Assembly: GCA_011364905.1 (NCBI GenBank)
Contig: RDNZ01000008.1
Coordinates: 4,401-68,400, forward strand
DNA length: 64,000 nucleotides
DNA from: Candidatus Thorarchaeota archaeon
GTDB lineage: Archaea > Asgardarchaeota > Thorarchaeia > Thorarchaeales > Thorarchaeaceae
Direction of reading: 5' to 3'
Part shown: positions 4,262 to 63,313 of the stretch, one piece after another
How the letters are laid out: the number at the start of each line of letters is the position of its first letter
Numbering within the stretch: position 1 is the first letter of the stretch
The notes under the pieces: generated by a model
Databases searched by the model: none
What the model saw: only the letters and a program-made list of their open reading frames with translations
Told to the model about the DNA's origin: nothing
Made by a program: the position numbers and the translations under genes

Positions 4262-5452
4262 TCATGATTGCTCTACCAGGGACTCTAGTTCTTTCTCCTT
4301 ACCATCAATTCTCGCTTTGAGAGTTTCAATCTGGTCTTCTAGCTTTGCTACTTGTTCGTTGTATGTTTCATCAGGCATTGCTCCCGATGTGTGTCTTTGT
4401 TCAATATGCCTGCGTAATTCCTCAACAGATTTCATTTCCTTCTTGAGGGCTTTCAGGTCTCCTTGTAAGGAAGATGTCCTGCTTTCATCTGCTGTCTTAA
4501 ACTGTTTAGCCGGTATCATTACACCCAGTTGTTGTTGTGTCTTTTCAGCGAAATCTTGGAATTGGTTACGCAGCATCTCGATGTTATTGTCGACATTAGT
4601 GACCTCTTCCTGCACCTTTGCAATGTCCTTCTGCAGATCAAATACGGCATTGACGAGGCGTTTCAAAGTCTTCTCAAATTCCGCTTCTACCATTGATTCT
4701 TCTGCAGGTTTTTCTACTTCTTTTCCTTTCCTCTCAGCTTTCTCCTGCTCCTTGACGATTGCACTGGGCTTAGCCATCAGGAGTTCTCCCGTTAGCCATT
4801 TGAAAGAACTCAGAGCGAATCTTGCATTACCCTTATGCTTTAGACCGCCTCCCCTTCTAAAGACCTCATAGCTGCCGATACACATGACTTTGCCTTTACC
4901 AATCTCTGCAATGGCCACAATTGGGGCTTTTCCTGGTTCTGCTGTGGCCGACGTAGTAGCCAGTGCTTGAGCTTTCCCCGAAATCTTAAGACTACACGCG
5001 GACGGAATAAGGAGGTCTGCGACATCCTCTGTTGCAGGATGAGCAACAACATCCGTGATGATCGGCATAGTTGGGAGTCCTGCATTGCTTCGTTCGTCCT
5101 TCACAGCTGTATTCTCGAATGTTATCCCAAATTCGCCAGATATTTTCGACATATTATTCATGAGTCCGCGGTCCCCTCCAGAGAGAGAGAGGAGCAACAA
5201 ACTACCGCCTTCTTGCACATATTTCTGAAGAACATCAATCTCTGCTGGTCTTACCTTTGAACTGTTGGGGCAACCAAAAACAAGAACATCTACATCTTTG
5301 AGATTCTTGGCTAGAATCATGAACTCGGTATATGCTTCCACATCGAAATCATTGTCACGAAGCATTTGTCCGAGTTCAGAGTATGTACTCTCTAGTCTAC
5401 CACGTTCATTCTGGGTCTGGTCAAAGAGGATTTTCTTTCTCCTTCCGCTCAA
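4262..5452 (-). CDS. Cytosolic GIFT-domain protein (IFT52 / GldG-like N-terminal domain) with long C-terminal coiled coil
   Basis: N-terminal ~230 aa line up with my recollection of the IFT52 GIFT domain: KKILFDQTQNE; VLVFGCPNSSKVRPAEIDVLQKYVQEGGSLLLLSLSGGD; ISGEFGITFENTAVKDE; PIVAIAEIGKGKVMCIGSYEVF; ARFALSSFKWLTG. No signal peptide or TM helix. Residues ~235-396 are heptad-like and E/K/Q-rich. Confidence 0.55.
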   Translation of the reverse strand: MSGRRKKILFDQTQNERGRLESTYSELGQMLRDNDFDVEAYTEFMILAKNLKDVDVLVFGCPNSSKVRPAEIDVLQKYVQEGGSLLLLSLSGGDRGLMNNMSKISGEFGITFENTAVKDERSNAGLPTMPIITDVVAHPATEDVADLLIPSACSLKISGKAQALATTSATAEPGKAPIVAIAEIGKGKVMCIGSYEVFRRGGGLKHKGNARFALSSFKWLTGELLMAKPSAIVKEQEKAERKGKEVEKPAEESMVEAEFEKTLKRLVNAVFDLQKDIAKVQEEVTNVDNNIEMLRNQFQDFAEKTQQQLGVMIPAKQFKTADESRTSSLQGDLKALKKEMKSVEELRRHIEQRHTSGAMPDETYNEQVAKLEDQIETLKARIDGKEKELESLVEQS

Positions 5453-36100: not shown

Positions 36101-39100
36101 ATCGTACACTATTGGGGCTAATGGGTTTCCATAATACATGCTAATTACGGTGTCTGTTGAACCAGACAGTACTGGCACATTTACCCAAGCCACGAGATGA
36201 GCATGAGTCAGGTTGTAGGTTTGGTCGAAAAGTTCTATCTCATGCGAGAGTGTTTTTTCGCCAATTGTGAAGGCAATGTCCCTACCGTCGGCGCGCACAT
36301 CTGTTCTTAGATCCGTATCGTATATGTCTACTAGCACGGGGAAGTTGACAAGGTTTTCCATGACGTTATCATGACTGATTGCCAAGTATTTTCTATGGTA
36401 GTACGGAAGGGTAAACCCAGCTCCCTGAAATGTTGTACTTCCCGCATACCATGTAGAGCCTGTTGGGTCCGTCAGCTCTAGAGAAATCGTAGAACCAATG
36501 GTTCCAGAACTCCAAACATGGAATTGGATATTCTCGCCAACTGCAAACTGCCCTGTGGTGGAATAGGGCCCTCCACTGGGTCCAATTTGCATGTCAAGAA
36601 CATGATTTCTATCTAGGAATTTAATCTTCCACATACCATATTCATCAATCGCAGTTGAGCCAACTATCAGTTTACCATCGAAACATGTCCAATCGGCTGC
36701 AAATGTTCTCTCGACCCCTGAGGGACTTGCAACAGAAAATGGCCACCACTCACCCTCTGGGTATGAAATCTCAAAAGAAACCGCTTCTAATTCAGGAGGC
36801 GGAGAAATCATCACATTCGCGGTCCAAATCGGCAGACTACCATTAACGATGGAAAATGATGTGCCTTGAGTAAAGTCATCAGCATAACTGAGTATCGAAG
36901 TCTGTACTCCAAGCGACAGTTCAGTTCCAACTGTGATGCTAGATTCAGAACTTGTTGTGAAGATGTATCCATTGCCACTCACCTGTTCCTCTGACTCGAT
37001 GGAGTAGAAGGAACTAGGATTGTATTGATTATTGTACTCTGTCAATATCCAACCAGAAGACCGAATAGCAGGTGAAACTTGAATTTCATCGAATCTCCCT
37101 AGAAAACGACTGGCTGAATCAAGTTGATTCCCTCCCCATAGCCAATCACCAAGACTTGCTAGTTGGGTCCATTGTGTTGGCACATTTTCTATGGCTAGAA
37201 TCAATTGTGTGCCATCCAAGTAAATCTCAACAGTTTTCGTAGAATAGTCAAGTGTGACAACGAGATGATGCCACACATTGTTTGTAAATGGATTGGTTAC
37301 AAGATTATAATCGATGTCGTTTCCGCCCCAGGGGTAGAAGAAGTTGTCACCATCAGGTTGTACCGCCCATTCAAAGCCATCGTCTTGGATGAGGGTGGGC
37401 GGAGGAGATGGGTTCAGTATGAATCGGTCGCTTGTCGTCATAATACGCTGATATCCCCCATCGGAAGAATTCACCCAGTTAATCCAGATTGAAAGAGTTC
37501 CCCCAGATTTAATGGAGTCTAAGCTGGAGCTTTCAGAAACATTGATCATGTCATCAATGCCATCCAACTCAAATCCACTGCCTATTTGACCTTGGACTAA
37601 ATCTGAACCGCTCATAGATCCTAAGGTCGCCCCATCATTATTGTAATGAGTACTGTCAAGCACTGTTCCTGCTGGACTTTGGTCTAGATGCCATACGCCA
37701 ACATAACTTCCCCATACTGCACTCGGATTTTCTTGATTCGTCAGATCTGGGTTGCCATAATACATGGTGATTGTTGTATCGATTGAAGAAGAAAGGTCTG
37801 TCTTGACCCAAGCAATAAGATGGGCATGCGTGCCATTATATGTTTGGTCGAAGTACACGATTTCGTGTGGGCACCAAGTATATCCATTCTTGAACATGAT
37901 GTCATCTCCATCAGCCTGTACATCGGTTCTTAGATCTGTGTCAAAGATGTCAATGAGCATAGGAAAATCAGTCAGGTCTTCTGCAACCATTGCGTGATCA
38001 ACAATCAAATTCTTCCTATACTTGAACTCCGCAGTATTAACATTAGGCTGATGTTCCGCCTGGGATGTCTTTTCCGGTCCAATAGTGTAGAAACTTGATG
38101 GACTATATTGGTTACTATATTCAGTCGCAATCCATTCAGGTGAAAGCGCAGTATTTGCAACACGCACTTCATCTGTGTTTGCAGTGGACCAATAGCCAAG
38201 AGTACCACCTATCTCACTGCGGAATGCGTTTATGTAGAAGGATTCCACCTCGTCAAGACTGCCATAACCTGTAATATCAATTGGAGAATTCGGATCCTCT
38301 GCTCCATCAATGTATAGTCGAAGATAGTTCCCATCTCTTATCATAGAAACAAGGTGCCACAAATTGTCCCCGTAGGTTGATGTCGAGTAGATGTTCTTCG
38401 CTACAGTATTGTCGTCAATCGCTGCCATCAACATTCCTGGACCTGATTCTATGCTAATTCGATATCTCTTAGCCATAAGTACAGCACCTTTTCCGGCAAG
38501 GGTTCCCATGTTCACACCATCATAATTGAACCACAGTGAAAATGAGAAGTCATTAGAACCCACATTTAACGAAGTATCATTCCCACAGTTAATGTAGTCC
38601 TGTGTATTGTCGAAATCAATGCTCCCATCAATCTGTCCTTCTACCTGATCGTCTGATTGAAGATTGTATCCTGTGCCATCATTCGAATTACTTGTCGAAT
38701 CATAAAGCGGTCCGGTCGGATTTTCACTAAGATGCCAGACCCCTCTGTAATTAGAGTCCCATACACCTGCGACGTTCTCTTGGTTCCCAACGACAGAGTT
38801 ACCGTAATACATTGTGATTACTGTATCAACTGATGATGAAAGGTCAGTCTTAACCCAAGCTACCAGATGTGCATGGGTGTCATTATAGGACTGCTCGAAG
38901 GACTCTATCTCATGAGGAAGGATAATTTCACCAGATTTGAATATGATATCATCACCGTCAGACTGCGCTTTCGTTCTTAGGTCAGCATCAAAGATATCTA
39001 TGAGCAATGGAAAGTCATTTAGATCTGTGCCAACCTTTGTATGATCAATGGCTATGTCCTTCTCGTAGTTGTATTGGGTGGCTTGATTGATTTCTATCCC

Positions 39101-42100
39101 AAGTGATGTTGTGGGTTCAGGACTAACGTATGGCCTTAGAAACACGTCATCCGCATAGACAGTATTGGGTTCCGTCTGAGGACTTGCCCAATAGAACACA
39201 GTACAGAACCTGTTGACACCCTCTGAGCCTAGATTTATTCCTGTTTCTTCGACTTCAAGGTTTCCATCAACCCACAGTCTTGCTTCTCCATCCGTGGTCG
39301 AGAATTTAGCTTGTATTTCTAGCATGTGCCAAGAACCCTTGGAAATTGGACTCGTAGTCCCGTAACCATATGCTTCACTCGCAATAGCGTTCCACAGGTA
39401 CAGGGACATATCGCTGTATATGGTCAGGCTTAGCTGGTTTACCCAAACTGGGGACGTATCAACGAATTGCATTATTGTGACATGATCAGTAGTCGAAAAA
39501 GTCGCAGGGAGATAGAAGTGGACTCTAGCAAACAGACTCGTCTTGTCACTGAAATCCTTCCAGATCATTGCCTGAGCTGCGGCCTGATTGTCAACCACTC
39601 CTTTTGCTGAATAGGTACCAGTATTGGCCTGCTCCGTGGTTACTGACAGCGAGTCTCCAATATCCGTGTATGAGCCATCCCAAGAGTTAAGGTCGCCACT
39701 CTCAAACCCATCATAGAATTGGAAGACGTTGGCGTGGTTGTCTGGTGGTGAAGATACCGATGGATCTCCATAGTATAAATAGTAATTATCATCAGCTGTT
39801 GAAGATGGAATGTCAGACTGAATCCTGAACCATACCTTTGTGGCTGCAGAGTCCCATGAAGAATCAGAGTCCAATACTCTGTCCAGTTCAATTAGGCTGA
39901 AACCATTCCAATACATAATCCGCATGTCATCACCATCAGCCTGTGATTTTCCTGATGCAACCAATGCTGCGTGATCGAATGTCACCGAAGTGGAGTATCC
40001 CGCCGTAACTGGCTCAGAACCAGTGGTGACAGTGATCTGTCTACTGAATTCGTAGGTTTCTCCAAGCATGGTTTCCTCCTTTACAGTATAGAATGATTCT
40101 GGATCATTCTGATTGTTGAACTCCGTAGTGATCCAGTCTGGGCTTCGATAGGAACTTGAAACTCGCACCTCATCAATGCGACCATCCCATTCCTGTATGA
40201 AGCCAGTTGAGCCGGGGTTATTGCCTATTTGGAGAACTGATGTGCCAGTCTGGGTCGTACCGCTATAGGGTGCACTATTCCGCTCAACTCCATCAACATA
40301 CAAGAGCAGTTCACTGGTTCCTGCGTTTGCCACACCGACAACATGATGCCACTTGCCATCATTCACGAGACTGATGGGTGCAGTCACGCTCTGAGTATTG
40401 TCGACATAAAATGCGAAGGTCGAACTATCCAACTTGCCTAACCAATAATTCCGATGACCCACAGCACCCCACTTGGCTACTATCACATCCGAAGTAGGAT
40501 CTGTATTGTTTGTATGTACCCATGCTTCCACCAGCATGTCTGATGATAGAACAAGTGAAGTAGAGTGTGGTGCCTCGATGCGTTCATTGGTTCCTTCTCC
40601 ATAGAACTCGGAGCATCCGTCGAATTTTCCTGTTTGAAGAGTGGGTTCAGTACCAATTGGGAGACCCACAGCGTCATTGCTATTTGAGGTACTATCATAC
40701 ACAGTGTCAGCTGGATCCTCGCTAAGATGCCACACGGCTGCAAAAGAAGTATCCCAGACACCGTGAGGATTCTCTAAACTATTCGAATTGGGATTTCCAT
40801 AATACATGGATAACACAGTATCAGAAGATGCAGAGAGATCTGTTCTCACCCAAGCAAGAAGGTGTCCATGTGTGGAATTGTATGACTGCTCGAACAGCTC
40901 AATCTCGTGAGGGAGTATCCATCCATCTTTTACAAACACAATGTCATCGCCATCAGATTGAACATCGAATCGAAGGTCTGAATCGAAGAGATCAATAAGA
41001 ACTGGAAATCCATAGAGATCCGCGGTCACCTTAGTGTGATCGATAACAATGTCTTTCTTGTACATGAAACCAAGAGGTACTTCTTGGGGAACTGTGACTT
41101 CTTGCTCAATCCCTATCGAGTAAAAGCTAGAAGGATTGTTTTGATTGTTGAACTCTGTAAGAATCCATTCTGAAGTGGTCGTAGAGCTGAGAACATGAAC
41201 TTCATCGATTTTCGCCGATAGAAACAGATTGGGTGCTCCAGCGTTGTCGTAGTTGTCACACGCCGCAATCAGAAATGGCTCAATGGAATTAATACTTCCA
41301 TATCCAGTGATGTCAACTGGCGAGGTCGGTACTTCAGATCCATCAATGTAAAGATGGAGAAGATTTCCTTCTCTCACCATGGCAGCGTAGTGCCAGAGGC
41401 CATCATTCAGCGCTGACGCCGAATAAATGCTGATTTTTCCAGGTGACGCAGAGTTGTCGTCGATTTCTGCCTTTATTGTTCCTGAACTTGTGACTGACAA
41501 CATGTATCTGTAGGCATCTGTGCCGATAGCTCCTTTATTGGCAAGAGGTGCGTCCAGATCGGATGTGGCGAACCACAAGCTCATAACAAAATCATTGTAA
41601 CCCACTGCAAGCGAGGCTGTATCTCCACAGTCTATATAGTCATTTGATCCGTCAAAGTCAATAGCATTGCCTATTAGACCCGGGACTTTGTCTTCTTCGA
41701 GCATTGTGCCGTACGTAGTCCCATCATTGTTGTTGTATGTACTGTCAATGATTTGTGGGGCTGGCTTGCCAACAGATGGACTTTCTCCGAGGTGCCACAC
41801 GCCTTGATACTGATTTCGCCAGACCTCCTCAGGACTTTCTTTGGCCCCCATGGCAGAATTTGCATAATACATTGAGATTATCGTGTCCGATACAGATGAG
41901 ATGTCTGCCCGTACCCAGGCGACTAAGTGTGCGTGTGTTGAGTTATACTGTTGGTCGAACAGTTCTAACTCATGCGGTAGACTCCTGCCATTTGATGTGA
42001 ACATTATGTCGTCGCCGTCTGGTTGGACCTTCGAATGCAGGTCTGAATCATAGATGTCAATCAACACTGGAAATCCCGTGAGGTCGGCTGCAACTTTATT

Positions 42101-45780: not shown

Positions 45781-45848
45781 ATAAGAATAGTAATTAATTA
45801 CACCTCATAGTGTTGATTATTATTGAGGAAGGCGTGGTTGTCGTAAAG

Positions 45849-47090
45849 ATGCAGATTCCGGGTACAAACATTGACGTAAGTCTCAAGGTCAATCGCATAT
45901 ACGTTGCAGACCCGGCTGTAAATCGAAGACTAAAATTCGCCGGTAGGTCCTTCAAAGAAATCATGGAGGAAGTACAACGATTTACCTACTTGCGAGGATT
46001 CAACGTTCCTCTCCCAATTCTAAAGTTTATTTTGAAGAGGATAGGCCTTCCTGAAGTCGATATAATTCCTGGAGAAGATGAGCTAACAAAGGAGGATCTG
46101 CTCGAACTCTCAAGAGCGTTGAATGTTCTCGATTCACTAAAGGATGAATTTCTCTCGCCAACTGGCAAAAGTGGCATTCCCGACGATATTCAAAGCACTC
46201 TAATACGTTCCTCTCCAGAGCTTGAAGACTTGAAGATGGATGTTCCAGCTCCTCAAGAAACAAGTATTTGGGATATTCCTGCAAGCGAGGAGGTCAAAGG
46301 GTTGGTCTTTTCTTTCCATGGTGAGAATATCCCAAGCACCTCCACGCCAAGAACACAATCAGCGGATGAAAACAAATCTGTGAAATTCATATGGGATGAT
46401 CCAGAGGTAGTTGCATCATTGGAAGATGTATCTCAAGATGAGAAATCAATGCCTGAGGGCGTACCCGAAATTCTCGACCTGAAAGTCCTGTTTCTTGGCG
46501 AAGAAGGAGTCGGTGTGAACAGCATTATCTTTGAGTCAAATCTGAAGCTTGGAAACGACTATTCTTCTCTTGATTTACCCCCAACTAGACCATTCACATT
46601 CAGCAACATAATTGAGCGAAACGATGCAAATGTTAGAGTTGATGCTTGGACATTTCAGAAGAGTACTGAGGCAAAAGTTCCAAAGACGGAGTTTTACACT
46701 GGATCTGGAATTGTTGTGCTGGTTTATTCGGTGGCAGAGCGATGGAGCTTCGACAGCCTTGACTTCTGGATTCGAGAAGTTTCTAACGCCTTCCTTATAC
46801 CACCACCGATAATAGTCGTCGGAAATAAAACCGATCTCCGTGATCATCCAGTCTATGATGATGATGATGAGGTTGAAGTCCCAGTTTCAACAGAAGAAGC
46901 CCGTGAGTATTGCGAAAAAGTCGCAAAGACGCTTGGGGAAAATGGACAGTCTCATCCGCTGTTCTTCATTGAAACCTCAACAATAACGGGACAAGGAATC
47001 ACCGAGCTATTGAATAAAATCATCGACTTTTGGCAAAGCAATGAGCGCCCAAGCATGCCAGCAACCGAGCAACACGCACCAACACTCTAA
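45849..47090 (+). CDS. Ras-superfamily small-GTPase-like protein with degenerate P-loop and switch II, plus ~215-aa N-terminal extension (paralog 1)
   Basis: C-terminal domain: G1-like FLGEEGVGVNS (Lys replaced by Val, Ser/Thr by Asn), G3-like DAWTFQ (DxxG Gly replaced by Thr), intact G4 VGNKTD, G5-like ETSTITGQG. Start set at the ATG at 45849 (MQIPGTN) by alignment with the paralog; the 13 upstream codons of the ORF track have no counterpart. Confidence 0.75.
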   Translation: MQIPGTNIDVSLKVNRIYVADPAVNRRLKFAGRSFKEIMEEVQRFTYLRGFNVPLPILKFILKRIGLPEVDIIPGEDELTKEDLLELSRALNVLDSLKDEFLSPTGKSGIPDDIQSTLIRSSPELEDLKMDVPAPQETSIWDIPASEEVKGLVFSFHGENIPSTSTPRTQSADENKSVKFIWDDPEVVASLEDVSQDEKSMPEGVPEILDLKVLFLGEEGVGVNSIIFESNLKLGNDYSSLDLPPTRPFTFSNIIERNDANVRVDAWTFQKSTEAKVPKTEFYTGSGIVVLVYSVAERWSFDSLDFWIREVSNAFLIPPPIIVVGNKTDLRDHPVYDDDDEVEVPVSTEEAREYCEKVAKTLGENGQSHPLFFIETSTITGQGITELLNKIIDFWQSNERPSMPATEQHAPTL

Positions 47091-47235: not shown

Positions 47236-48480
47236 ATGCAGATCCCCAGGACTAACATTGAGGTAACGCTCAAGACCAATGGCATCTATCTCAGAGACCC
47301 GGCTACACATCGCAGGCTGCGCATAATTGGTAGATCTTTCAAGGAAATATTGGAGGATGTGCAACGGTTTGTATATATGCGCGGATTCAAAGTTCCTCAG
47401 CCAATTATCAAATTCATCTTGAAGCGAGTAGGTCTTCCTGAAGTCGATATCATTATTGAAAAACATGAGTTGACAGACGATGACCTTCAGGAGCTTTCGA
47501 AAACTCTCGACGTTATTGATAGTCTAAAGGACGAGTTCCTCACTCCATCTTACTCTCTCAAGGCAATTGATGAAACTGATAGTGGCATTTCAGAAATACC
47601 ACAAGAACTACCAGATTTAACAGCAGACATTCCAGCGCCTCAAAAAATGAGTGTCTGGGACATTCCTGTAGACGAGGAGATCAAGGATCTTGTTTTCTCC
47701 TTCCACCCAGAGAACATATCAACAAGTGTTCCCACCCCACGAACTCAGACGTCTGCGGACGAACAACCGATGAAATTCATCTGGGATGACCCTGCAGTTG
47801 CGGCAGCCATCGCAGAAACATCCGATGACGAGCAACTATCACCTGAAGTCATTTCAGACCTGCAAGACCTGAAGGTTTTGTTCCTAGGTGAAGATGGGGT
47901 TGGTGTGAACAGCATTATCTTTGAGTGCAACCTGAAGCTCGGGAACGATTATTCATCCCTTAGTTTGCCACCTACCAATCCATTTACATACAGTAACATA
48001 ATTCAAGACGATGGAACAAGTGTTCGTGTTGATGCTTGGACATTTGAGAAAAGTATGGAAGCGAAAGTGTCAAAGACAGAGTTCTATTCAGGATCCGGCA
48101 TCATAGTACTTGTTTATTCAGTTGCTGAGAGATGGAGTTTTGATAGCCTTGATTTTTGGACTCGAGAAGTTTCCAATGCCTTCCCAATTGCACCACCTAT
48201 AATTGTGGTTGGAAATAAGACTGACCTCCGTGACCATCCAGTTTATGACGAGGAAGATGAGGTGGACATCCCAGTGTCCACGGAAGAGGCTCGTGACTAT
48301 TGCTTCAAAATGGCTATGACTCTTGGAGAAAGTGGGCGGTCTCATCCTGTGTTCTTCATTGAAACTTCAACAATTACTGGACAAGGCATTACTGAACTTT
48401 TGAAGAAGATTGTTGACTTTTGGAAAGCAAATGAACGACCAAGCATGCCTGCCACTGAGCAAGATGTCCCAACAATCTAG
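47236..48480 (+). CDS. Ras-superfamily small-GTPase-like protein with degenerate P-loop and switch II (paralog 2)
   Basis: Same architecture and same substitutions: FLGEDGVGVNS, DAWTFE, VGNKTD, ETSTITGQG. High identity to paralog 1 along the full length, including the C-terminal peptide NERPSMPATEQ. Confidence 0.75.
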   Translation: MQIPRTNIEVTLKTNGIYLRDPATHRRLRIIGRSFKEILEDVQRFVYMRGFKVPQPIIKFILKRVGLPEVDIIIEKHELTDDDLQELSKTLDVIDSLKDEFLTPSYSLKAIDETDSGISEIPQELPDLTADIPAPQKMSVWDIPVDEEIKDLVFSFHPENISTSVPTPRTQTSADEQPMKFIWDDPAVAAAIAETSDDEQLSPEVISDLQDLKVLFLGEDGVGVNSIIFECNLKLGNDYSSLSLPPTNPFTYSNIIQDDGTSVRVDAWTFEKSMEAKVSKTEFYSGSGIIVLVYSVAERWSFDSLDFWTREVSNAFPIAPPIIVVGNKTDLRDHPVYDEEDEVDIPVSTEEARDYCFKMAMTLGESGRSHPVFFIETSTITGQGITELLKKIVDFWKANERPSMPATEQDVPTI

Positions 48481-51045: not shown

Positions 51046-51837
51046 GTGCGGATTAGAAGAACGAAGGGACACACTCCAATGCATGAGCGACTTCAATCAG
51101 AACTCTATGCTTCAATTGCTACACTTGACCAGCTGAAAAAACTCTATGACTTTGGTGCAGTGGATATAAGGTCCTATCAGAGGGAGTCCGAAGCCCTTCT
51201 TCAGGATGTTCGCACTCAGATTGAGAATCTTCGACGTTTGGGTCTTGATATTGGGAGATTTGTCACAAGCGAACGGATAATCGAGATATTTCCTGAGGCT
51301 GCAAATCTACTCCGACTTGGTACTCACGCTCCAAGACGGTCTCTTCAGGGCATGACATTGGACCAGTTCTACGATTACATTGGCCTTGCTATACTTGACG
51401 TGGCAACCGAGAACTCATCAAAGGGCCTCATGGGCTTAGCAGAGCTTATTGTAGAGGTCGTCCGGCGACTTCCTGAGATTGAATCAGTGACCTACAATGA
51501 TGTCATTGAATCTGTTAATCGTGTTGCTGAAAACGGGCTGATTCCTGGTATTCGAACCCTGCGAGGAGGAGTCAAAGTCGTGGAGCTTCGACCGCTAGAA
51601 CTTCGGCGAGACCAAGCTGATGTGATCAATCTTGCAGCTACAAAAGGATACGTTTCTGTCGAGGAGGTCATAATGCAGCTCAAATGGTCCGAAGATCATG
51701 CGCGTCAAGTTCTTTCAAGTTTGGTGGATGCAGGCATGGCTGTAGCTGATATCCGCTTCTCCACAGGTGGCCGGTACTATTTCCCTGGCTTAAGGTCTCG
51801 TGAAAGCACCGATTCACGAAACACAGGTGCTTACTGA
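51046..51837 (+). CDS. ESCRT-II subunit, EAP30-domain protein (Vps22/Vps36-like)
   Basis: Tandem winged-helix C-terminus aligns with eukaryotic SNF8/EAP30: LRPLELRRDQADVINLAATKGYVSVEEVIMQLKWSEDHARQVLSSLVDAGMAVADIRFSTGGRYYFPGL versus P.EL..D...VL.LAE..GYVTV.E....LKW...RARQVLE.LL.EGLAW.D......YW.P.L. GTG 51046 or ATG 51079 could be the start. Confidence 0.8.
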   Translation: MRIRRTKGHTPMHERLQSELYASIATLDQLKKLYDFGAVDIRSYQRESEALLQDVRTQIENLRRLGLDIGRFVTSERIIEIFPEAANLLRLGTHAPRRSLQGMTLDQFYDYIGLAILDVATENSSKGLMGLAELIVEVVRRLPEIESVTYNDVIESVNRVAENGLIPGIRTLRGGVKVVELRPLELRRDQADVINLAATKGYVSVEEVIMQLKWSEDHARQVLSSLVDAGMAVADIRFSTGGRYYFPGLRSRESTDSRNTGAY

Positions 51838-51839
51838 CT

Positions 51840-52577
51840 CTATGATGATGAAATTATAATCGCTCCTTTCTTCTCATCAATCCACTCAGCTAGTCCTTTC
51901 TTGACCATAAGGGCAAGAACTATGTGAATGTCCTTCTCTGGGAGGTTAGCAAAATCCTCCTCGACTTCTTGAATGACGATTGATTTCACATCTAGTCTAA
52001 GTTTTCCTGTCTTCAATGCCCACTGGTACACTATGTCCGCCCAATCTTCAAGAGGTCGCCAATAGACTCTTAGCTGGCGCTGTTTCTTGTCGACCCACTC
52101 AGCAACTTCTTTGTTCACGAGGACTTCTGCTATATCCCTGAATGAATCTACTTTGTTTCTCAGATCCTTGAATGGTGGTTCACTGATGAACGTAGCTAGA
52201 GACAGAATGTGCACCTTGTTATTCTCTGTCCACTCCAAGAGATAATCTGCCCATTCCTCTGCCCAAAGATTTCGGTCCTCCTCTCTGGTTGGTATTCCAT
52301 ACATCCATTCAGTTTCCTCAATATCTCCCCAACTTGGCATCAGAGAATCGGGTTCAACGATCTTAGTTTCAAGTTCCGCATCATTCGCAGTTTCGATTTC
52401 TGTTTTGGGCTTGACTACTTCCGTAGTTTCCTCAACTTCGACAACAACTTCTGGAGAATGAGTTGTGTCCTCAGTGATGGTTCTATCAATATCTGGGGAT
52501 TCAATTTGTTCTTGTTTTACGGGCTTGGCTGACTTCTTTTGTTTGGCCTTCTCCCGTTTTCTCTCCTTGACACCCAA
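51840..52577 (-). CDS. ESCRT-II subunit, Vps25-like (two winged-helix domains) with possible K/E-rich N-terminal extension
   Basis: NKEVAEWVDKKQRQLRVYWRPLEDWADIVYQWALKTG and FANLPEKDIHIVLALMVKKGLAEWI match the Vps25/EAP20 pattern (EWLDK....I.WRRPEEW..LIYQWV..SG). A TTG start at 52577 lies 1 nt after the vps4 stop codon. The first ATG is at 52340 (MPSWGD). Confidence 0.75.
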   Translation of the reverse strand: MGVKERKREKAKQKKSAKPVKQEQIESPDIDRTITEDTTHSPEVVVEVEETTEVVKPKTEIETANDAELETKIVEPDSLMPSWGDIEETEWMYGIPTREEDRNLWAEEWADYLLEWTENNKVHILSLATFISEPPFKDLRNKVDSFRDIAEVLVNKEVAEWVDKKQRQLRVYWRPLEDWADIVYQWALKTGKLRLDVKSIVIQEVEEDFANLPEKDIHIVLALMVKKGLAEWIDEKKGAIIISSS

Positions 52578-52580
52578 ACC

Positions 52581-53798
52581 TTAGGAACCCTCCGCCCAGT
52601 CAATATACTTCTTGACATCCTCAGGTGGAGTTGCAGGGCGAATGTTTTCAATGGCATGTAGGAAGTCGTCCCTCGATACGGGACGAATGTCGAGGATCTC
52701 CTGTTCATCTTCCATTCTGCCAGTCCGCTGCAAATCCCTAATTGGTTCCAGAGCTGCCTCTCGACAGACTACACTGATGTCTCTCCCGCTGTACCCTTCT
52801 GTGAGGTCCGCAAGCTCCTCATACTCGACAGTCGGGGCAACCTCGACATCTTCCATGTGAATCTCGAAAATCTTCGCACGCGCATCTCTGTTCGGAAGAG
52901 GAACATGTATCTTCTTCTCAAACCTAGATCTCAGAGCAAAATCCAACTCCCAAGGCAGATTAGTTGCACCAATTAGAGTGATTCGTTCATCCTCATTACT
53001 TGCTAGTCCTTGGAGTTCAGTGAGCAGCTGTGTTTTCAGACGTCTCTCACCCCCAACATCATCTCCTGATCTTGAAACACCAATGGAATCCAACTCATCA
53101 ATGAAGATGATGGCGGGCTGATTTTTTCTTGCTAGTTCAAAGAGGCTCATCACCAATCTTTCAGATTCGCCCAACCACTTGCTTACTATATTTGCTGCTG
53201 ATACGTTGAAGAATGTTGCATTAACCTCTGAAGCCACAGCTTTGGCGACGAGGGTTTTGCCACACCCTGCGGGACCATAGAAGAGAATGCCTCTCCAGGG
53301 TTGTCTGGCTTTTCCCTTGAAGAGCTCGGGATGCTTCATTGGTGCGATTATCGCATCATCAATAGCTTGTTTTGCATCTTCAAGACCTGCAACCTCTGAC
53401 ATTTTTATTCTAGGACGTTCCGTAATGATAGTGTCTGAAATCATCTCTCTGAGTCGTTTTTCCTCGTCGTCTAATTCAACTTCCGTCTTTGAGGCTTCAT
53501 GGATTGAAACTGGCTCAGCTGTATCAACATCGACTGTCGGAGGTGAAACAAGTCCATCTACAGGTCCGTGTGACTTCTTCTTGATACCTGAAAGATACCT
53601 CACTCTATCCACGCATTCCTGAGCTCTATCAAAATAGTGCTTCTTAACTGAAGGCAACGCTGATGAATTTGATAACTTAATGAGAATCTTGCTTGCTTTG
53701 AGATACTCTTGGCAAGCCTCTTTTTTCATGCCCCTTTGGTCTAATTCTATTGCTTTAGAGAGCATTGCCTTTAGTCCCTGATCTACGCGGTCTGCCAT
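52581..53798 (-). CDS. vps4: Vps4-type AAA+ ATPase with N-terminal MIT domain
   Basis: MIT-like three-helix N-terminus (KAIELDQRGMKKEACQEYLKASKILIKL...YFDRAQECVDRV), Walker A GPAGCGKT, Walker B IIFIDELDS, second region of homology. Confidence 0.9.
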   Translation of the reverse strand: MADRVDQGLKAMLSKAIELDQRGMKKEACQEYLKASKILIKLSNSSALPSVKKHYFDRAQECVDRVRYLSGIKKKSHGPVDGLVSPPTVDVDTAEPVSIHEASKTEVELDDEEKRLREMISDTIITERPRIKMSEVAGLEDAKQAIDDAIIAPMKHPELFKGKARQPWRGILFYGPAGCGKTLVAKAVASEVNATFFNVSAANIVSKWLGESERLVMSLFELARKNQPAIIFIDELDSIGVSRSGDDVGGERRLKTQLLTELQGLASNEDERITLIGATNLPWELDFALRSRFEKKIHVPLPNRDARAKIFEIHMEDVEVAPTVEYEELADLTEGYSGRDISVVCREAALEPIRDLQRTGRMEDEQEILDIRPVSRDDFLHAIENIRPATPPEDVKKYIDWAEGS

Positions 53799-53940: not shown

Positions 53941-54558
53941 GTGATAGAATTGGGTTCAATTAGAAAGGCATTCTCCTGGGGCAGAAAAAAACCAGATATA
54001 GGTGAGGTCTCAAGCCGACTCAGGATCTTATCCAAGCAGCTAGCGCGCCAAAGGAACAAATTGGAAAAAGAGGAGAGGGACGCTAAATCGCGAGCAGTCC
54101 GAGCGCGAAAAGCTGGTCAATTGGAAGCCTATCGAACATATGCTACTGAGATGGTTCGATTTCGCCGATATGCCCTTTCGGTTGACAAGTCGCGCCTGCA
54201 AATTCTGAAGATTCTAGCTCATCTAAATCGCGCTCAGACATCAGCGAAGACACAATTAGCATTGCAGGAGGTCGCAAAGATTCTTGGAATGTTGGGGGAC
54301 GGTTCCGACGCCACTAAGGTAGTAGCGAATGTAGATGAGATTGCTCGTCGCCTCGAGGAGTTCGAGATTGAAGCGAGTATCTCCGATGAGGCTCTGGATT
54401 CAACAATGGAAGTGTCATCTGAAGACTTGACATTTGCATATCAGGAAATCGATGCTGAAGCTGGGCTTGCTGATACTCCGGCTGTAACAAGACCTGCTAG
54501 TGAATCCGAATCTCTTGAAGAAGATATCAAAGCGTTAGAACGCGAACTTGGAGTGTAG
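53941..54558 (+). CDS. ESCRT-III (Snf7-family) protein, probably Vps2/24/46-like
   Basis: 205 aa. Basic helical hairpin N-terminus (LSKQLARQRNKLEKEERDAKSRAVRARKAGQLEAYRTYATEMVRFRRY), acidic C-terminus ending in the amphipathic ESLEEDIKALERELGV. GTG start (no nearby in-frame ATG). Divergent from vps4. Confidence 0.75.
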   Translation: MIELGSIRKAFSWGRKKPDIGEVSSRLRILSKQLARQRNKLEKEERDAKSRAVRARKAGQLEAYRTYATEMVRFRRYALSVDKSRLQILKILAHLNRAQTSAKTQLALQEVAKILGMLGDGSDATKVVANVDEIARRLEEFEIEASISDEALDSTMEVSSEDLTFAYQEIDAEAGLADTPAVTRPASESESLEEDIKALERELGV

Positions 54559-54560
54559 AA

Positions 54561-56138
54561 TCACCACAGTGCATCACGAGATTCTTTGCCGATTCGTTCC
54601 ATCTCTAGTCTAGTATGGTAGGAGTCCCTCATCAACTCTCGATATCTTCTAATGAAGTCCTCGGCCATAAGCTGACCACTTCGTAGCATGTGGACAGTAT
54701 CTCGAATTGCTGCTTCAATGGATGCTGCATCTCTTTGTAGCGAATGTAGCCTGGGATTAGTATCATAACTTGGGTGAATACTTGGTTTCTGACCATATTG
54801 GCCAACGACTCTGCCAAGCTCATCTTTGAATGATTCCGGTTTTCTGTAGTAACTATCGTAGGGGTAATGGCGAACAGGAGAAGGATTCCACCCCTCTGCT
54901 CCAGGTATTGAACCTGGTCGCATCATTGACATATCTTCCTTGTACTGAGACCTGTCATTGGTGGAGAGGAGTGAATAAACCATCCCTTCGATCTTTAATC
55001 GCACATCGCTTGTGCTGATATCGGTTTGCTCAATCTTTCTGACCCTTTGCATATCAGTTTGTATATACTTCTCAAACTTCCTAGCAATTTCAATATAGTC
55101 TGGCAAGACTTTCTTTGTCTGGTCAGCACATGTTAGTCTAATCTCCCCTTGTTTTAACTTTAAGACGAGGCGTTTTCGGAGTCGCCCATCCTCCTCAATA
55201 GATTTCAAATAGAGCAACGGGAAGTCAAAGATGGTTTCCATCTTCTTTCTGACTCTTCCAGTTTCTGCAATGAACAGCAGTCGTTTGTTTGTCATGAAAA
55301 GCATTCCAAGGGCCTTATCGTTTTTGAGAAAGTCGCTACCTGATATTTTGATATCAGGAAGGGCACACACAGGCAACTCTCCAACTGAAAGTTGACCGTG
55401 TTCATAGAACATGGTAAACTGCCCTTTGTAGTAATCGAGCCCATCAAGCTGCCTCTTGACGTCCTTGAGTGTTTCTCTTAGAGGTTCGAGGGACTCGTCA
55501 ACATTCTGTTTATAGTAGATACCCATCTCTGTTATTCTGTTCGTTATCCCCTCTATGAATGGGAATTGATTTGGATTCCATTGATTATAGTCGATGAAGT
55601 CCCTTGTTTCAGCTGCCATTCTCTTTGCTATGATCTCTGCTTGACTAGAGATTCTATTCTTAATCGCCGGCAGTTCATCCTGCATGCCTTCAATCTTCTC
55701 TTCTATCCATTTGTAGTGGAGAAAGTTAGCCATTCTTAGAGATACAAGCAGTCTCTTTGCACTCGCTAGTTTGTTTGTGAACTCTCTGAGTTTAGTATGT
55801 CCATACTGAATAGTCATTATGGCATGTCGCATATCTAGGGCAAGAGACCTTCTCCGGTCTTCCAGAAGTACGACTCTGGTAGAGTGGCACTTCGGACAGA
55901 TATCCACTGTTTTTCGTCCCTTGCTGAGTTCCTCTGATTCACATTGCGGGCATGTTTCGAACTTCTCACCGGGCACTGGTGTTCCCAGTATGTGGTGGCA
56001 CTCACTGCAAACAATGTACTCTGTGGATTTTGATTCAAGACATTCCGTACACAAGGCGGCCCCACAGTCTTCACACATATGTGTCGCTCTTCCAGATTGA
56101 CACGATTTGCATTGGCCCGTTGGAGAGTCTTTTATCAA
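54561..56138 (-). CDS. Zinc-finger (B-box-like + zinc ribbon) protein with coiled-coil region and PH/GRAM(GLUE)-like segment
   Basis: N-terminus CKSCQSGRATHMCEDCGAALCTECLESKSTEYIVCSECHH and CPQCESEELSKGRKTVDICPKCHS. Long helical region. ALGMLFMTNKRLLFIAETGRVRKKMETIFDFPLLYLKSIEEDGRLRKRLVLKLKQGEIRLTC resembles GRAM/GLUE/bacterial-PH strands. Pro/Tyr-rich linker and helical C-terminus. TTG start. Confidence 0.6.
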   Translation of the reverse strand: MIKDSPTGQCKSCQSGRATHMCEDCGAALCTECLESKSTEYIVCSECHHILGTPVPGEKFETCPQCESEELSKGRKTVDICPKCHSTRVVLLEDRRRSLALDMRHAIMTIQYGHTKLREFTNKLASAKRLLVSLRMANFLHYKWIEEKIEGMQDELPAIKNRISSQAEIIAKRMAAETRDFIDYNQWNPNQFPFIEGITNRITEMGIYYKQNVDESLEPLRETLKDVKRQLDGLDYYKGQFTMFYEHGQLSVGELPVCALPDIKISGSDFLKNDKALGMLFMTNKRLLFIAETGRVRKKMETIFDFPLLYLKSIEEDGRLRKRLVLKLKQGEIRLTCADQTKKVLPDYIEIARKFEKYIQTDMQRVRKIEQTDISTSDVRLKIEGMVYSLLSTNDRSQYKEDMSMMRPGSIPGAEGWNPSPVRHYPYDSYYRKPESFKDELGRVVGQYGQKPSIHPSYDTNPRLHSLQRDAASIEAAIRDTVHMLRSGQLMAEDFIRRYRELMRDSYHTRLEMERIGKESRDALW

Positions 56139-62319: not shown

Positions 62320-62476
62320 CGGATTGTCATCCATTATTGTACTTTTCAGAGGATATTATCTTGGACAGGATTCACTGAATCGGGTGCAATATGAAATCTA
62401 TTGAGATTCTCTATATTTCCCTCGTCGTATATAGGCTTATCATTGTAGGTTTCAACGGTATGATGTGAGGAGTGAA

Positions 62477-63313
62477 ATGTCCTTAAAACGATCCATACTC
62501 GGTGTTTGGCTCATTGAGCGAGGCAGCGGTAGGAATCTTGTTTCCAGATGCTATTCTGAAGCAGTAAAATTGGATATGGATCTAATTGCTCCATTCCTCT
62601 CAGCAACTCATACCTTTATTGACAAAGCATCCAGTGAAACCCTAAAGACAGTAGATACCGAAACCAGCAGATACGTTTGGGAAGCCAACGATTATCTTCT
62701 CTTTGTCATGGTCGTTTCCAAAGCGGCTCGCCTTGGGCATATGCGTTTCATGCTTGAGTACGCTCTCAGCGAGTTTATGAACCGAGAGGTTCCTCAAAAT
62801 TCTGACATCTCTACTGTGCTGAAGAATTGGCTAGGGTCTCCAAACACATTCAAGAAATTTGGAGACTTCATTGATGAGTTGGTGACTCAGTATGAGATCA
62901 CTGATGAGAGTCTAGTGGCTGGAAAATCCATGGATTGTCTTGAGGTTTACAGCCATCTGTTTAGAGGCATTATGAGAGTGAAAGGCGGACAAAGGAAAAA
63001 GCAGGCAATTGTTAAACGCATGAAATCTCTTATAGAACCACTTTTGGACAGATATCCATTCCTCAATGAAGTCCCGATCGATGCAGCTGGAATTGAGGTT
63101 TTAAACATAGATGTCAATACCGTGGCGTACCAACATCTTCGCGACGCTTTGGAGGAGTTGCTCCGCCTTCTCGGAAAGGCTGTTCGTGAGATTGCCTCTG
63201 CCAAGGCATATCGGGATATGCTGTTTGACCATGTTATGCCCTATGTGAAACACGACATTATGAGGCTTCAAACCTATGCGATTCTTGATGACGTCGTCAG
63301 ATATCTCTTCTAA
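62477..63313 (+). CDS. Hypothetical protein with N-terminal roadblock/longin-like alpha-beta domain
   Basis: SILGVWLIERGSGRNLVSRCY...DMDLIAPFLSATHTFIDKAS..LKTVDTETSRYVWEANDYLLFVMVVSKAARLGHMRFMLEYA follows the beta-beta-alpha-beta-beta-beta-alpha pattern of longin/roadblock (LC7/MglB) domains. ~170-aa helical C-terminal part of unknown type. ATG 62477 preferred over GTG 62465. Confidence 0.45.
   Translation: MSLKRSILGVWLIERGSGRNLVSRCYSEAVKLDMDLIAPFLSATHTFIDKASSETLKTVDTETSRYVWEANDYLLFVMVVSKAARLGHMRFMLEYALSEFMNREVPQNSDISTVLKNWLGSPNTFKKFGDFIDELVTQYEITDESLVAGKSMDCLEVYSHLFRGIMRVKGGQRKKQAIVKRMKSLIEPLLDRYPFLNEVPIDAAGIEVLNIDVNTVAYQHLRDALEELLRLLGKAVREIASAKAYRDMLFDHVMPYVKHDIMRLQTYAILDDVVRYLF

What the first reader, a model, noticed from the sequence alone, without database searches (positions are those of the whole stretch)
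54561..56138. Zinc-finger protein with a PH/GRAM(GLUE)-like segment encoded tail-to-tail with ESCRT-III
The 525-aa protein combines a B-box-like Cys cluster, a zinc ribbon, ~170 aa of predicted coiled coil, and a segment (ALGMLFMTNKRLLFIAETGRVRKKMETIFDFPLLYLKSIEEDGRLRKRLVLKLKQGEIRLTC). The G.L..TN.RL.F strand pattern of that segment is typical of GRAM/GLUE/PH-like domains. In eukaryotes the GLUE domain of Vps36 supplies membrane and ubiquitin binding to ESCRT-II. The EAP30 protein in this cluster has no such domain. Its position 2 nt from the ESCRT-III stop raises the possibility of an accessory targeting factor for the ESCRT system. This is inference from adjacency plus a motif-level resemblance.
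Basis: inference. Interest (0 to 1): 0.65.

Follow-up and report, generated by a model that had tools for sequence, protein, structure and literature searches.

The report
Asgard zinc-finger/PH/steadiness-box ESCRT protein
This gene encodes a Thorarchaeota member of an already described Asgard-only protein family (Znr_CC_PH_SB) that joins zinc fingers, a helical stalk, a membrane-binding-type PH domain and a Vps23-like "steadiness box", and probably targets the ESCRT membrane-cutting machinery to membranes, though nobody has tested this experimentally.

Summary
ORF 54561-56138(-) is a real, conserved 525-aa gene. Its stop codon lies 2 nt from the stop of a convergent Snf7/ESCRT-III gene, beside Vps4, Vps25 and an EAP30/Vps22 gene.

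The predicted architecture is:
- 12 invariant Cys in six CxxC pairs, enough for three Zn sites (residues 10-84)
- three long helices (92-240)
- a 7-strand + C-helix PH fold (254-357; domain model pLDDT 92)
- a disordered linker (394-459)
- a C-terminal helical hairpin (460-524)

The best Foldseek matches of the PH domain are MTMR2 PH-GRAM, EAP45/Vps36 GLUE and Lam6. A profile of the hairpin hits the yeast Vps23 steadiness box (E 2.7e-6) and TSG101.

Outside Thorarchaeota, homologues about 20-25% identical sit convergent with, or one gene from, an Snf7 gene in 10 of 12 loci examined, while their other neighbours differ.

Makarova et al. 2024 (mBio, PMC10936438) described this family as Znr_CC_PH_SB (asCOG cog.011556), proposed it as an ESCRT-I-like component and expected its PH domain to be membrane-associated. 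The window protein is homologous to Lokiarchaeial members (BLASTP 4e-39; hhalign E 4.6e-46).

The protein is not a Vps36/GLUE orthologue. It has no winged-helix domains and misses Pfam thresholds. Lipid binding and binding partners are untested.

The parts
54561..56138 (-). Whole gene: 525-aa Znr_CC_PH_SB family protein (TTG start, TGA stop). No transmembrane segment; pI 8.5.
55866..56117 (-). N-terminal zinc module, residues 8-91. Four CxxC pairs (10/13, 22/25, 30/33, 44/47) are arranged as in B-box/RING/FYVE-type cross-brace fingers. A zinc ribbon follows (63/66, 81/84). Together they can hold three Zn sites.
   Evidence: The 12 Cys are invariant in 42 distant homologues; in the Thor alignment, C10/C13 are absent only from three N-terminally truncated entries. 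Weak Pfam zf-B_box, DZR and ANCHR-like_BBOX hits recur across members. PDB profile matches are only weak, to RING, B-box, FYVE and eL43 fingers.
55398..55865 (-). Helical 'CC' region, residues 92-247, with three long helices (92-136, 143-177, 189-240).
   Evidence: AF2 model, block-mean pLDDT 75-94 (mostly >=82). Together with the PH domain it resembles the helical-bundle+PH arrangement of DH-PH proteins in Foldseek.
55068..55379 (-). PH-like (GRAM/GLUE/bPH-type) domain, residues 254-357: seven beta-strands plus a C-terminal helix. Conserved basic loop residues are K275, K285/R286, R297-K299 and R319/K322/R323.
   Evidence: pLDDT 92.4; Foldseek; PDB profile hits only PH/GLUE/GRAM chains; bPH_3 in 19/27, GRAM in 8/27; basic residues; net charge +6
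54762..54959 (-). Poorly conserved, predicted-disordered linker, residues 394-459. It is much longer and of low complexity in Lokiarchaeial homologues.
54567..54761 (-). C-terminal helical hairpin, residues 460-524: a Vps23-type steadiness box.
   Evidence: AF2 helices 462-487 and 492-524, pLDDT ~92. The profile of 38 family C-termini hits the yeast Vps23 SB 2f66_A (E 2.7e-6), TSG101 6vme_B (5.7e-4) and VPS37B (0.037). Weak Pfam Vps23_core and Mod_r hits.
53941..54558 (+). Convergent neighbour: Snf7/ESCRT-III, 205 aa. It belongs to paralogue group 'b', not the Vps20-like group that neighbours the family gene in other lineages.
52581..53798 (-). Vps4 (MIT + AAA + Vps4_C).
51840..52577 (-). ESCRT-II Vps25-like protein.
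51046..51837 (+). EAP30/Vps22-like protein with an N-terminal Vps28/SB-like hairpin (residues ~11-94). It is the candidate partner of the target's steadiness box.
   Evidence: Pfam EAP30 3.5e-14 and VPS28 0.011. hhalign with SB profile A3, residues 11-64, E 0.0098 but probability only 4%. HHpred 99% for the SMTZ1-45 orthologue in Table S3 of PMC10936438.

Best explanation
The gene encodes the Thorarchaeota orthologue of the Asgard-specific Znr_CC_PH_SB family (asCOG cog.011556). It is a soluble, modular adaptor that most likely acts upstream of ESCRT-II/III.

Proposed mechanism:
1. The basic PH (GRAM/GLUE-like) domain docks the protein on an anionic membrane surface (inferred).
2. The C-terminal Vps23-type steadiness-box hairpin packs with other steadiness-box hairpins, most plausibly the Vps28-like hairpin fused to the N-terminus of the neighbouring Vps22/EAP30. 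This would build an ESCRT-I-like headpiece joined directly to ESCRT-II (inferred).
3. Vps22-Vps25 then nucleates ESCRT-III, and Vps4 recycles it. These steps are known for Asgard homologues from yeast two-hybrid and biochemical work in PMC9192718.
4. The N-terminal three-zinc module and the helical stalk provide spacing and a further, unknown binding surface for cargo or a partner (inferred).

Loki- and Thorarchaeia lack UEV-Vps23, and Thorarchaeota lack ubiquitin. In these lineages the protein may therefore be the main, ubiquitin-independent, early-acting ESCRT factor.

Shown here: the gene, the domain architecture, the PH fold, steadiness-box homology, family membership and conserved linkage to ESCRT-III genes. 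Inferred: lipid binding, the steadiness-box partner, and the order of action.
For: **Architecture.** Twelve conserved Cys. AF2 full-length model with pLDDT 77 and the domain boundaries given above.

**PH domain.** The domain model alone has pLDDT 92.4 and pTM 0.84. Foldseek against the PDB gives MTMR2 PH-GRAM at E 1e-4 and TM 0.70, EAP45 GLUE at 1.4e-4, Vps36 PH at 2.7e-4 and Lam6 at 1.4e-3. All seven PDB sequence matches of the PH profile are PH, GLUE or GRAM chains.

**Basic surface.** Basic residues are conserved in four loops, and the median net charge across 31 diverse members is +6.

**Steadiness box.** The family profile hits Vps23/STP22 at E 2.7e-6, TSG101 at 5.7e-4 and VPS37B at 0.037.

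**Family membership.** BLASTP to the Lokiarchaeial protein P0257 gives 4e-39 over 404 residues. hhalign of the Thor profile against the Loki profile gives probability 100% and E 4.6e-46. The P0257 locus has the same gene order and lengths (family gene of 1953 nt, then MetE, then Snf7 on the minus strand) as the Lokiarchaeum GC14_75 rows annotated cog.011556 / Znr_CC_PH_SB in Table S2 of PMC10936438.

**Linkage within Thorarchaeota.** Snf7 is convergent and adjacent in 69 of 72 Thor loci. The other three loci end at a contig edge.

**Linkage outside Thorarchaeota.** Snf7 is the convergent next gene in L078/L079, L081, L082 and L083. It is one or two genes away in L073-L077 and L084/L085. Other neighbours differ between these loci. 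L082 and L083 also carry Vps4 and Vps25 downstream.

**Candidate partner.** The EAP30 N-terminus carries a Vps28/SB-like hairpin.

**Literature.** The family was proposed as an ESCRT-I-like component with a membrane-associated PH domain (PMC10936438). Thor lacks ubiquitin (PMC9192718). Loki and Thor lack UEV-Vps23 (bioRxiv 10.1101/2023.07.25.550441).
Against: - No experiment on any family member was found in two literature searches.
- No Pfam hit of the window protein reaches its gathering score.
- The PH profile matches to the PDB are individually non-significant (E 0.011-1.5).
- PH-like folds often bind proteins rather than lipids, so the basic loops are only suggestive. The conserved basic residues lie in loops at both ends of the sandwich.
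- Within Thorarchaeota the whole region, including tRNA synthetases, TldD/PmbA and TFB, is colinear. In-class synteny alone is therefore weak evidence.
- Two non-Thor loci show no Snf7 in the flanks examined: L080 (4.8 kb downstream to the contig end) and L086 (10 kb each side).
- The steadiness-box match to the EAP30 N-terminus is weak: hhalign probability 4% against a single sequence. No match was found to Vps25.
- No complex prediction could be run.
Confidence: 0.6

Rival explanations
1. CdvA-like direct recruiter. The protein binds the membrane and recruits or nucleates the adjacent ESCRT-III subunit directly, bypassing ESCRT-II. Its C-terminal hairpin would act like the CdvA coiled-coil, which is related to the steadiness box.
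For: The most conserved neighbour across lineages is an Snf7 gene, not Vps22 or Vps25. In non-Thor lineages that neighbour is consistently one paralogue group, annotated Vps20-like in Table S2. Makarova et al. report HHpred similarity between steadiness boxes and the CdvA hairpin. [quoted passage not shown]
Against: Asgard ESCRT-III proteins lack the winged-helix domain that CdvA binds in Crenarchaeota (established knowledge; PMC10936438). The hairpin profile matches Vps23, TSG101 and VPS37, whose known partners are other steadiness boxes. In Thor the adjacent Snf7 is the other paralogue group.
Confidence: 0.2
2. Protein- or ubiquitin-like-modifier-binding adaptor, or a TRIM-like E3 ligase. 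The PH domain would bind a protein ligand, as EAP45 GLUE binds ubiquitin. The N-terminal B-box/RING-like fingers plus coiled coil would act in a ubiquitin-like conjugation pathway rather than in membrane targeting.
For: B-box followed by coiled coil recalls the TRIM architecture. The N-terminal profile gives weak matches to RING (RNF4, RING1B) and B-box (TIF1-beta, MID1) fingers. EAP45 GLUE in complex with ubiquitin is among the best structural matches.
Against: All N-terminal matches are non-significant (E >= 0.007). Thorarchaeota seemingly lack ubiquitin (PMC9192718), yet they conserve the protein strongly at 51-84% identity. No E1/E2 genes were seen in the ESCRT-proximal part of the window.
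Confidence: 0.1
3. The protein is functionally unrelated to ESCRT. The adjacency would be a by-product of a frozen gene order, and the protein would instead be a zinc-ribbon nucleic-acid-binding or regulatory factor. Some database names suggest this: 'transposase-like protein', 'ribosomal protein S17E'.
For: The whole 15-kb region is colinear in all Thor genomes, housekeeping genes included. The gene is divergently transcribed from tldD-pmbA with only a 52-nt spacer. The JGI names are listed.
Against: Adjacency to Snf7 persists in distant lineages where every other neighbour has changed. The protein carries a Vps23-type steadiness box, a module otherwise specific to ESCRT-I. The odd JGI names are explained by generic zinc-ribbon matches.
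Confidence: 0.05

Closest known systems
Znr_CC_PH_SB family, asCOG cog.011556 (Makarova et al. 2024, mBio, PMC10936438)
   Same: The domain order is the same: three zinc modules, helical or coiled-coil region, PH domain, steadiness box. The protein is homologous to Lokiarchaeial members. All named sources are Asgard archaea. The gene is linked to ESCRT-III genes.
   Different: Thor members are shorter (about 500-530 aa against 600-900 aa) because the low-complexity linker before the steadiness box is short. In Thor the neighbouring Snf7 is the other paralogue group, and the gene sits directly in the Vps4-Vps25-Vps22 cluster.
GLUE domain of Vps36/EAP45 (ESCRT-II)
   Same: PH-like fold with TM about 0.6. 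A weak profile match covers ~65 residues, including the 'G.L.LT..R.IFI' strands. Both are associated with zinc fingers and with the ESCRT pathway. Both are presumed to target membranes.
   Different: The PH domain is not fused to winged-helix ESCRT-II core domains. There is no NZF insertion; the zinc fingers are N-terminal and of a different type. Pfam PF11605 is not reached. The protein ends in an ESCRT-I-type steadiness box instead.
Vps23/TSG101 (ESCRT-I)
   Same: The C-terminal helical hairpin is homologous to the steadiness box. It is preceded by a long helical region.
   Different: There is no UEV domain. The N-terminus is a zinc module, and a PH domain is inserted between the helical region and the steadiness box. 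The stalk is predicted as an intramolecular three-helix arrangement.
GRAM / bacterial PH (bPH_3) domains (MTMR2, Lam6/GRAMD1, DUF1696)
   Same: These are the best structural matches (MTMR2 TM 0.70, Lam6 0.66). The nearest sequence relatives outside the family are small PH-only or PH+Zn-ribbon proteins that reach the bPH_3 and GRAM gathering scores.
   Different: The context is entirely different: there is no phosphatase or StART domain. The window protein itself is sub-threshold for both Pfam models.
CdvA (crenarchaeal Cdv system)
   Same: Both are early-acting factors thought to contact the membrane, encoded next to ESCRT-III/Vps4. The CdvA helical hairpin is reported to be related to steadiness boxes.
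   Different: CdvA uses a PRC barrel and an E3B peptide that binds the winged-helix domain of CdvB. Neither feature is present here.

Membership tests
Znr_CC_PH_SB (asCOG cog.011556) | Three N-terminal zinc-ribbon/finger modules | tested here: met
   Six CxxC pairs (12 Cys), invariant in 42 distant homologues and conserved in the full-length Thor homologues.
Znr_CC_PH_SB (asCOG cog.011556) | Coiled-coil/helical region | tested here: met
   AF2 helices 92-136, 143-177 and 189-240, block-mean pLDDT 75-94 (mostly >=82).
Znr_CC_PH_SB (asCOG cog.011556) | PH domain | tested here: met
   Domain model pLDDT 92.4. The listed top Foldseek hits are almost all PH-like domains.
Znr_CC_PH_SB (asCOG cog.011556) | C-terminal steadiness box | tested here: met
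   The profile of the family's C-termini hits the Vps23 SB at E 2.7e-6 and TSG101 at 5.7e-4.
Znr_CC_PH_SB (asCOG cog.011556) | Sequence homology to a member listed by the authors (Lokiarchaeum GC14_75, 650 aa) | tested here: met
   BLASTP 4e-39 and hhalign E 4.6e-46 to Lokiarchaeial proteins. P0257 has the same gene length and the same MetE and Snf7 neighbours as the GC14_75 rows of Table S2. That P0257 corresponds to the GC14_75 entry is inferred from this context, not from an accession number. The stored copy of the table is truncated, so Thor rows could not be read.
GLUE domain / Vps36 (ESCRT-II) | PH-like fold | tested here: met
   TM 0.60-0.62 to 2hth_B and 2cay.
GLUE domain / Vps36 (ESCRT-II) | Fused to the tandem winged-helix ESCRT-II core (EAP30/Vps36 family) | tested here: not met
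   No EAP30 or winged-helix hit in the protein. The AF2 model has no winged-helix domain.
GLUE domain / Vps36 (ESCRT-II) | Matches Pfam PF11605 (Vps36_ESCRT-II) at its gathering score | tested here: not met
   Only 2 of 27 members hit, with best E 0.12.
GLUE domain / Vps36 (ESCRT-II) | Binds phosphoinositide and/or ubiquitin | not testable with these tools
   The only evidence is conserved basic loops.
GRAM domain (PF02893) / bPH_3 (PF14470) | Pfam model at its gathering score | tested here: inconclusive
   The window protein scores 15.6 bits for bPH_3 against a cut-off of 23. bPH_3 is hit in 19 of 27 members and GRAM in 8 of 27, all sub-threshold. Nearest out-of-family relatives do reach both cut-offs.
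ESCRT-I Vps23/TSG101 | N-terminal UEV domain | tested here: not met
   No UEV or UBC hit. The N-terminus is a zinc module.
ESCRT-I Vps23/TSG101 | C-terminal steadiness box (Vps23_core) | tested here: met
   The Pfam Vps23_core hit of the single sequence is only E 0.087.
B-box zinc finger (PF00643) | Pfam model at its gathering score | tested here: inconclusive
   The window protein scores 17.9 bits against a cut-off of 24.1. 17 of 27 relatives hit, with best E 7.9e-6. Three homologues carry a precomputed PF00643 assignment.
FYVE domain | Basic R(R/K)HHCR PI3P-binding motif | tested here: not met
   The Cys spacing is FYVE- or B-box-like, and there are weak matches to ZFYVE19, RUFY1 and EEA1. 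The corresponding motif reads RATHMCE in Thor and is not basic in Loki. The motif definition comes from established knowledge.

The most novel reading that the evidence does not exclude
In Thor- and Lokiarchaeia, which lack UEV-Vps23 (and, in Thor, ubiquitin), this protein could be the sole early-acting ESCRT factor, independent of ubiquitin. It would be a single polypeptide that combines a Vps36-GLUE-like membrane anchor with a Vps23-type steadiness box. That box would plug directly into the steadiness box fused to Vps22, so ESCRT-I and ESCRT-II would form one complex. Its zinc-finger + PH module could also be the evolutionary source of the eukaryotic Vps36 GLUE domain. The ancestral Asgard gene order [Znr_CC_PH_SB>][<Vps20-like Snf7][<second Snf7][Vps4>][Vps25>] would then mark it as a core, not accessory, component.
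Probability: 0.2. Interest if true: 0.65.

Novelty: already known. Interest (0 to 1): 0.33.

Why it matters
How Asgard ESCRT machinery is brought to membranes is an open question for the origin of eukaryotic membrane trafficking. Asgard genomes have no Vps36 GLUE domain, no Vps27 FYVE protein and no CdvA. This family is the obvious candidate for the missing membrane anchor, and it links modules that eukaryotes distribute between ESCRT-I (steadiness box) and ESCRT-II (GLUE-like PH domain). The idea is already in the literature as a computational prediction. The value here is confirmation for this genome, plus three details. The PH domain is closest to the GRAM/GLUE branch. The steadiness box is specifically Vps23-like. 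The convergent pairing with an ESCRT-III gene is conserved across deeply divergent lineages. The compact Thor version is only 525 aa with a short linker, so it would be a convenient construct for the lipid-binding and interaction experiments that are still missing.

Tried and rejected
1. A single-sequence search of PDB sequences gave only noise: MotB, RpoM and FYVE fragments at E >= 0.08.
2. The single-sequence Pfam scan gave only sub-threshold hits. Profiles and structure prediction were needed.
Non-Thor synteny had to be obtained through the look-up of encoding contigs instead.
4. The first profile search with long Loki proteins (A2) was swamped by low-complexity linkers and returned only 15 proteins. 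A trimmed N-terminal alignment (A5) worked.
5. I tried to read the Thor rows and the accession of the SMTZ1-45 orthologue in the supplementary tables of PMC10936438. The stored files are truncated and KXH75182 is not present.
6. The steadiness-box profile against the Vps25 neighbour gave no match.
7. A FYVE-like PI3P-binding reading of the N-terminal fingers was rejected because the basic motif is absent.
8. TRIM-like E3 and nucleic-acid-binding readings were considered and ranked low (see rivals).
9. A link to the divergently transcribed tldD/pmbA pair was rejected because those genes are not neighbours outside Thorarchaeota.
Full report
**1. The observation**

The ORF at 54561-56138 on the minus strand exists as described. 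It is 525 codons long with a TTG start. A GGAGGT motif lies 8-13 nt upstream of the start. The TGA stop is separated by two bases (AA) from the TAG stop of a convergent 205-aa gene.

Pfam identifies that neighbour as Snf7/ESCRT-III. The next genes are Vps4 (MIT + AAA + Vps4_C), an ESCRT-II/Vps25 protein and an EAP30/Vps22 protein, all above their gathering scores. On the other side the gene is divergent from tldD-pmbA.

The quoted segment is at residues 276-337. The protein has no hydrophobic segment compatible with a transmembrane helix: the maximum Kyte-Doolittle 19-residue mean is 0.83.

The database holds 166 related protein clusters, nearly all from Thorarchaeota MAGs and nearly all named 'hypothetical'. 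So the window comes from a Thorarchaeote.

**2. Anatomy**

An alignment of 27 Thor homologues (51-82% identical) shows twelve conserved cysteines in six CxxC pairs: 10/13, 22/25, 30/33, 44/47, 63/66 and 81/84. The same twelve are invariant in 42 homologues that are only about 20% identical.

The spacing of the first four pairs is that of cross-brace B-box/RING/FYVE fingers, and the last two pairs form a zinc ribbon. All matches to such families are weak. The FYVE basic motif is absent.

AlphaFold2 with this alignment (mean pLDDT 77) gives the following layout:
- small beta elements in the zinc region
- three long helices (92-136, 143-177, 189-240)
- seven strands plus a helix (256-357)
- two short helices
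- a disordered stretch (394-459)
- a helical hairpin (462-487 and 492-524)

**3. The PH domain**

Foldseek on the full model returned PH-containing structures. These included the Lam6 PH-like domain, DH-PH exchange factors, human EAP45 GLUE, MTMR2 and yeast Vps36 PH.

I then modelled residues 246-360 alone, using an alignment of 31 diverse family members. The model has pLDDT 92.4 and pTM 0.84. Its best PDB matches are:
- MTMR2 PH-GRAM, E 1e-4, TM 0.70
- EAP45 GLUE, E 1.4e-4, TM 0.60
- Vps36 PH, E 2.7e-4, TM 0.62
- GRK2 PH
- Lam6, TM 0.66

A sequence profile of the domain matched only seven PDB sequences at E < 10. All seven are PH-like: two bacterial PH proteins, three Vps36/EAP45 chains, a GRAM protein and MTMR6. 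None is individually significant (E 0.011-1.5).

Scanning all 27 Thor members against Pfam gave bPH_3 in 19, GRAM in 8 and Vps36_ESCRT-II in 2, all below threshold. The nearest relatives outside the family are small PH-only or PH+Zn-ribbon proteins that do reach the bPH_3 and GRAM thresholds.

Basic residues are conserved in four loops (K275, K285/R286, R297-K299, R319/K322/R323). The domain carries a median net charge of +6 across the family.

It is not evidence of orthology with Vps36.

**4.

A profile of 38 family C-termini hits the C-terminal steadiness box of yeast Vps23/STP22 in three ESCRT-I core structures: 2f66_A (E 2.7e-6), 2p22_A and 2caz_A. It also hits human TSG101 (5.7e-4) and, more weakly, VPS37B (0.037). 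The alignment spans the whole hairpin.

This module forms the ESCRT-I headpiece in eukaryotes.

The EAP30/Vps22 neighbour in the window has a weak VPS28 N-terminal hit at residues 18-94 (E 0.011). It also aligns with the family steadiness-box profile over residues 11-64, at E 0.0098 but low probability. Makarova et al. report 99% HHpred probability for the same region of the SMTZ1-45 orthologue. Vps25 gave no match.

**5. Synteny**

All 72 Thorarchaeota loci retrieved have the same order: TFB-ArgRS-PmbA-TldD-target-Snf7-Vps4-Vps25-EAP30-AspRS. Snf7 is convergent and adjacent in every locus that extends far enough, 69 of 72. Because housekeeping genes are equally fixed, this alone says little.

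A profile search of 1.84 billion representatives found a small family: 119 clusters at E <= 1e-3 and 88 at E <= 1e-10. Many of the members are 600-900 aa long. Source names place these in Lokiarchaeia/'Promethearchaeota', Sigynarchaeota and other Asgard bins.

Their loci show different flanking genes but a recurring Snf7:
- Snf7 is the convergent next gene in L078/L079, L081, L082 and L083. The last two also have a second Snf7, Vps4 and Vps25 downstream.
- Snf7 is separated by one large TPR gene, plus a small ORF in some, in five Loki/Sigyn loci (L073-L077).
- Snf7 is separated by MetE in L084/L085.
- No Snf7 was seen in the flanks examined in L080 (4.8 kb downstream to the contig end) or L086 (10 kb each side).

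The Snf7 genes fall into two groups. The neighbour in non-Thor lineages is always the group annotated Vps20-like by Makarova et al. The Thor neighbour belongs to the other group. This suggests an ancestral order [family>][<Snf7a][<Snf7b][Vps4>][Vps25>], from which Thor lost Snf7a at this position. That ancestral order is inference.

**6. What is known**

Makarova et al. [quoted passage not shown] They state that it is absent from eukaryotes, present in several Asgard lineages and probably ancestral. They call it a likely ESCRT-I component and, by analogy with Vps36, expect its PH domain to be membrane-associated.

Their Table S2 lists a 650-aa member in Lokiarchaeum GC14_75, followed by MetE and a minus-strand Vps20 gene. 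P0257 is 650 aa with exactly that neighbourhood. The window protein matches it at BLASTP 4e-39 over 404 residues. The Thor and Loki profiles align with probability 100% and E 4.6e-46. All four defining domains were verified here, so the window gene is a member of this published family.

A 2023 preprint lists cog.011556 among 'Steadiness/Vps23 box' asCOGs and notes that Loki- and Thorarchaeia lack UEV-Vps23. Hatano et al. 2022 note that Thorarchaeota seemingly lack ubiquitin. I found no experimental work on the family.

**7. Mechanism**

The best-supported model is an early-acting adaptor:
- The PH domain sits on the membrane.
- The steadiness box joins a headpiece with the steadiness box fused to Vps22.
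- Vps22-Vps25 nucleates ESCRT-III, and Vps4 recycles it.

Shown here: the architecture, the homologies and the conserved linkage. Inferred: lipid binding, the partner, and the order of events.

Rivals, in order of likelihood:
- a CdvA-like direct recruiter of the adjacent ESCRT-III
- a protein- or ubiquitin-like-binding or TRIM-like role for the PH domain and B-box
- no functional link to ESCRT

I give the main model 0.6. Family identity alone I put above 0.9.

**8. Verdict**

However, the finding rediscovers a family, and a functional hypothesis, already published from comparative genomics.

It remains a good experimental target. The details added here are modest:
- the PH domain is closest to the GRAM/GLUE branch
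- the steadiness-box hit is specifically Vps23-like
- the convergent pairing with ESCRT-III is conserved across lineages
- the neighbouring Snf7 paralogue is switched in Thor

Noticed in passing
window 15201-27146 (-) and 27143-44812 (-): Two giant ORFs of 3981 and 5889 aa overlap by 4 nt. The larger has many repeated modules and a C-terminal hydrophobic segment followed by an acidic tail. They look like huge surface proteins. Neither was analysed.
   Followed up: no
window 45810-47090 (+) and 47236-48480 (+): Two tandem paralogous Ras-family small GTPases, each with an N-terminal extension of ~210 aa of unknown function (Pfam Ras E ~1e-12). At least one copy is conserved beyond AspRS, next to the ESCRT cluster, in many Thor loci.
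   Followed up: partly
window 4262-5452 (-): A 396-aa protein has a clear IFT52 GIFT-domain hit (E 1.3e-16). The domain is best known from eukaryotic intraflagellar transport.
   Followed up: no
window 51046-51837 (+): The EAP30/Vps22 protein carries an N-terminal Vps28/steadiness-box-like hairpin. Pfam VPS28 gives E 0.011, and the alignment to the family SB profile over residues 11-64 is weak. The literature reports this for the SMTZ1-45 orthologue.
   Followed up: partly
window 62465-63313 (+): A 282-aa protein has a weak hit to the first longin domain of FUZ/MON1/HPS1 (E 0.019). It may be a longin-type trafficking protein.
   Followed up: no
window 53941-54558 (+) compared with L078, L082, L083, L084: The Snf7 next to the target in Thor belongs to a different ESCRT-III paralogue group from the Vps20-like Snf7 that neighbours the family gene in other Asgard lineages. 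The Vps20-like copy is missing from this position in Thor.
   Followed up: partly
L073-L077 (Lokiarchaeia/Sigynarchaeota), about 11.9-16.0 kb in locus coordinates: A conserved 1270-1300-aa TPR-repeat protein is encoded convergently between the family gene and the Snf7 gene in these lineages.
   Followed up: no
L080 1582-2664: In one lineage the family gene has no Snf7 in the 4.8 kb of contig downstream. It lies two genes downstream of an inositol-1-phosphate synthase gene, which is of possible interest for an inositol-lipid ligand of the PH domain. This is a single case and may be coincidence.
   Followed up: no
window 54564-54566 (last codon of the target): Thor family members end in a conserved C-terminal tryptophan (20 of 27 sequences). 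Non-Thor members do not. Its significance is unknown.
   Followed up: no
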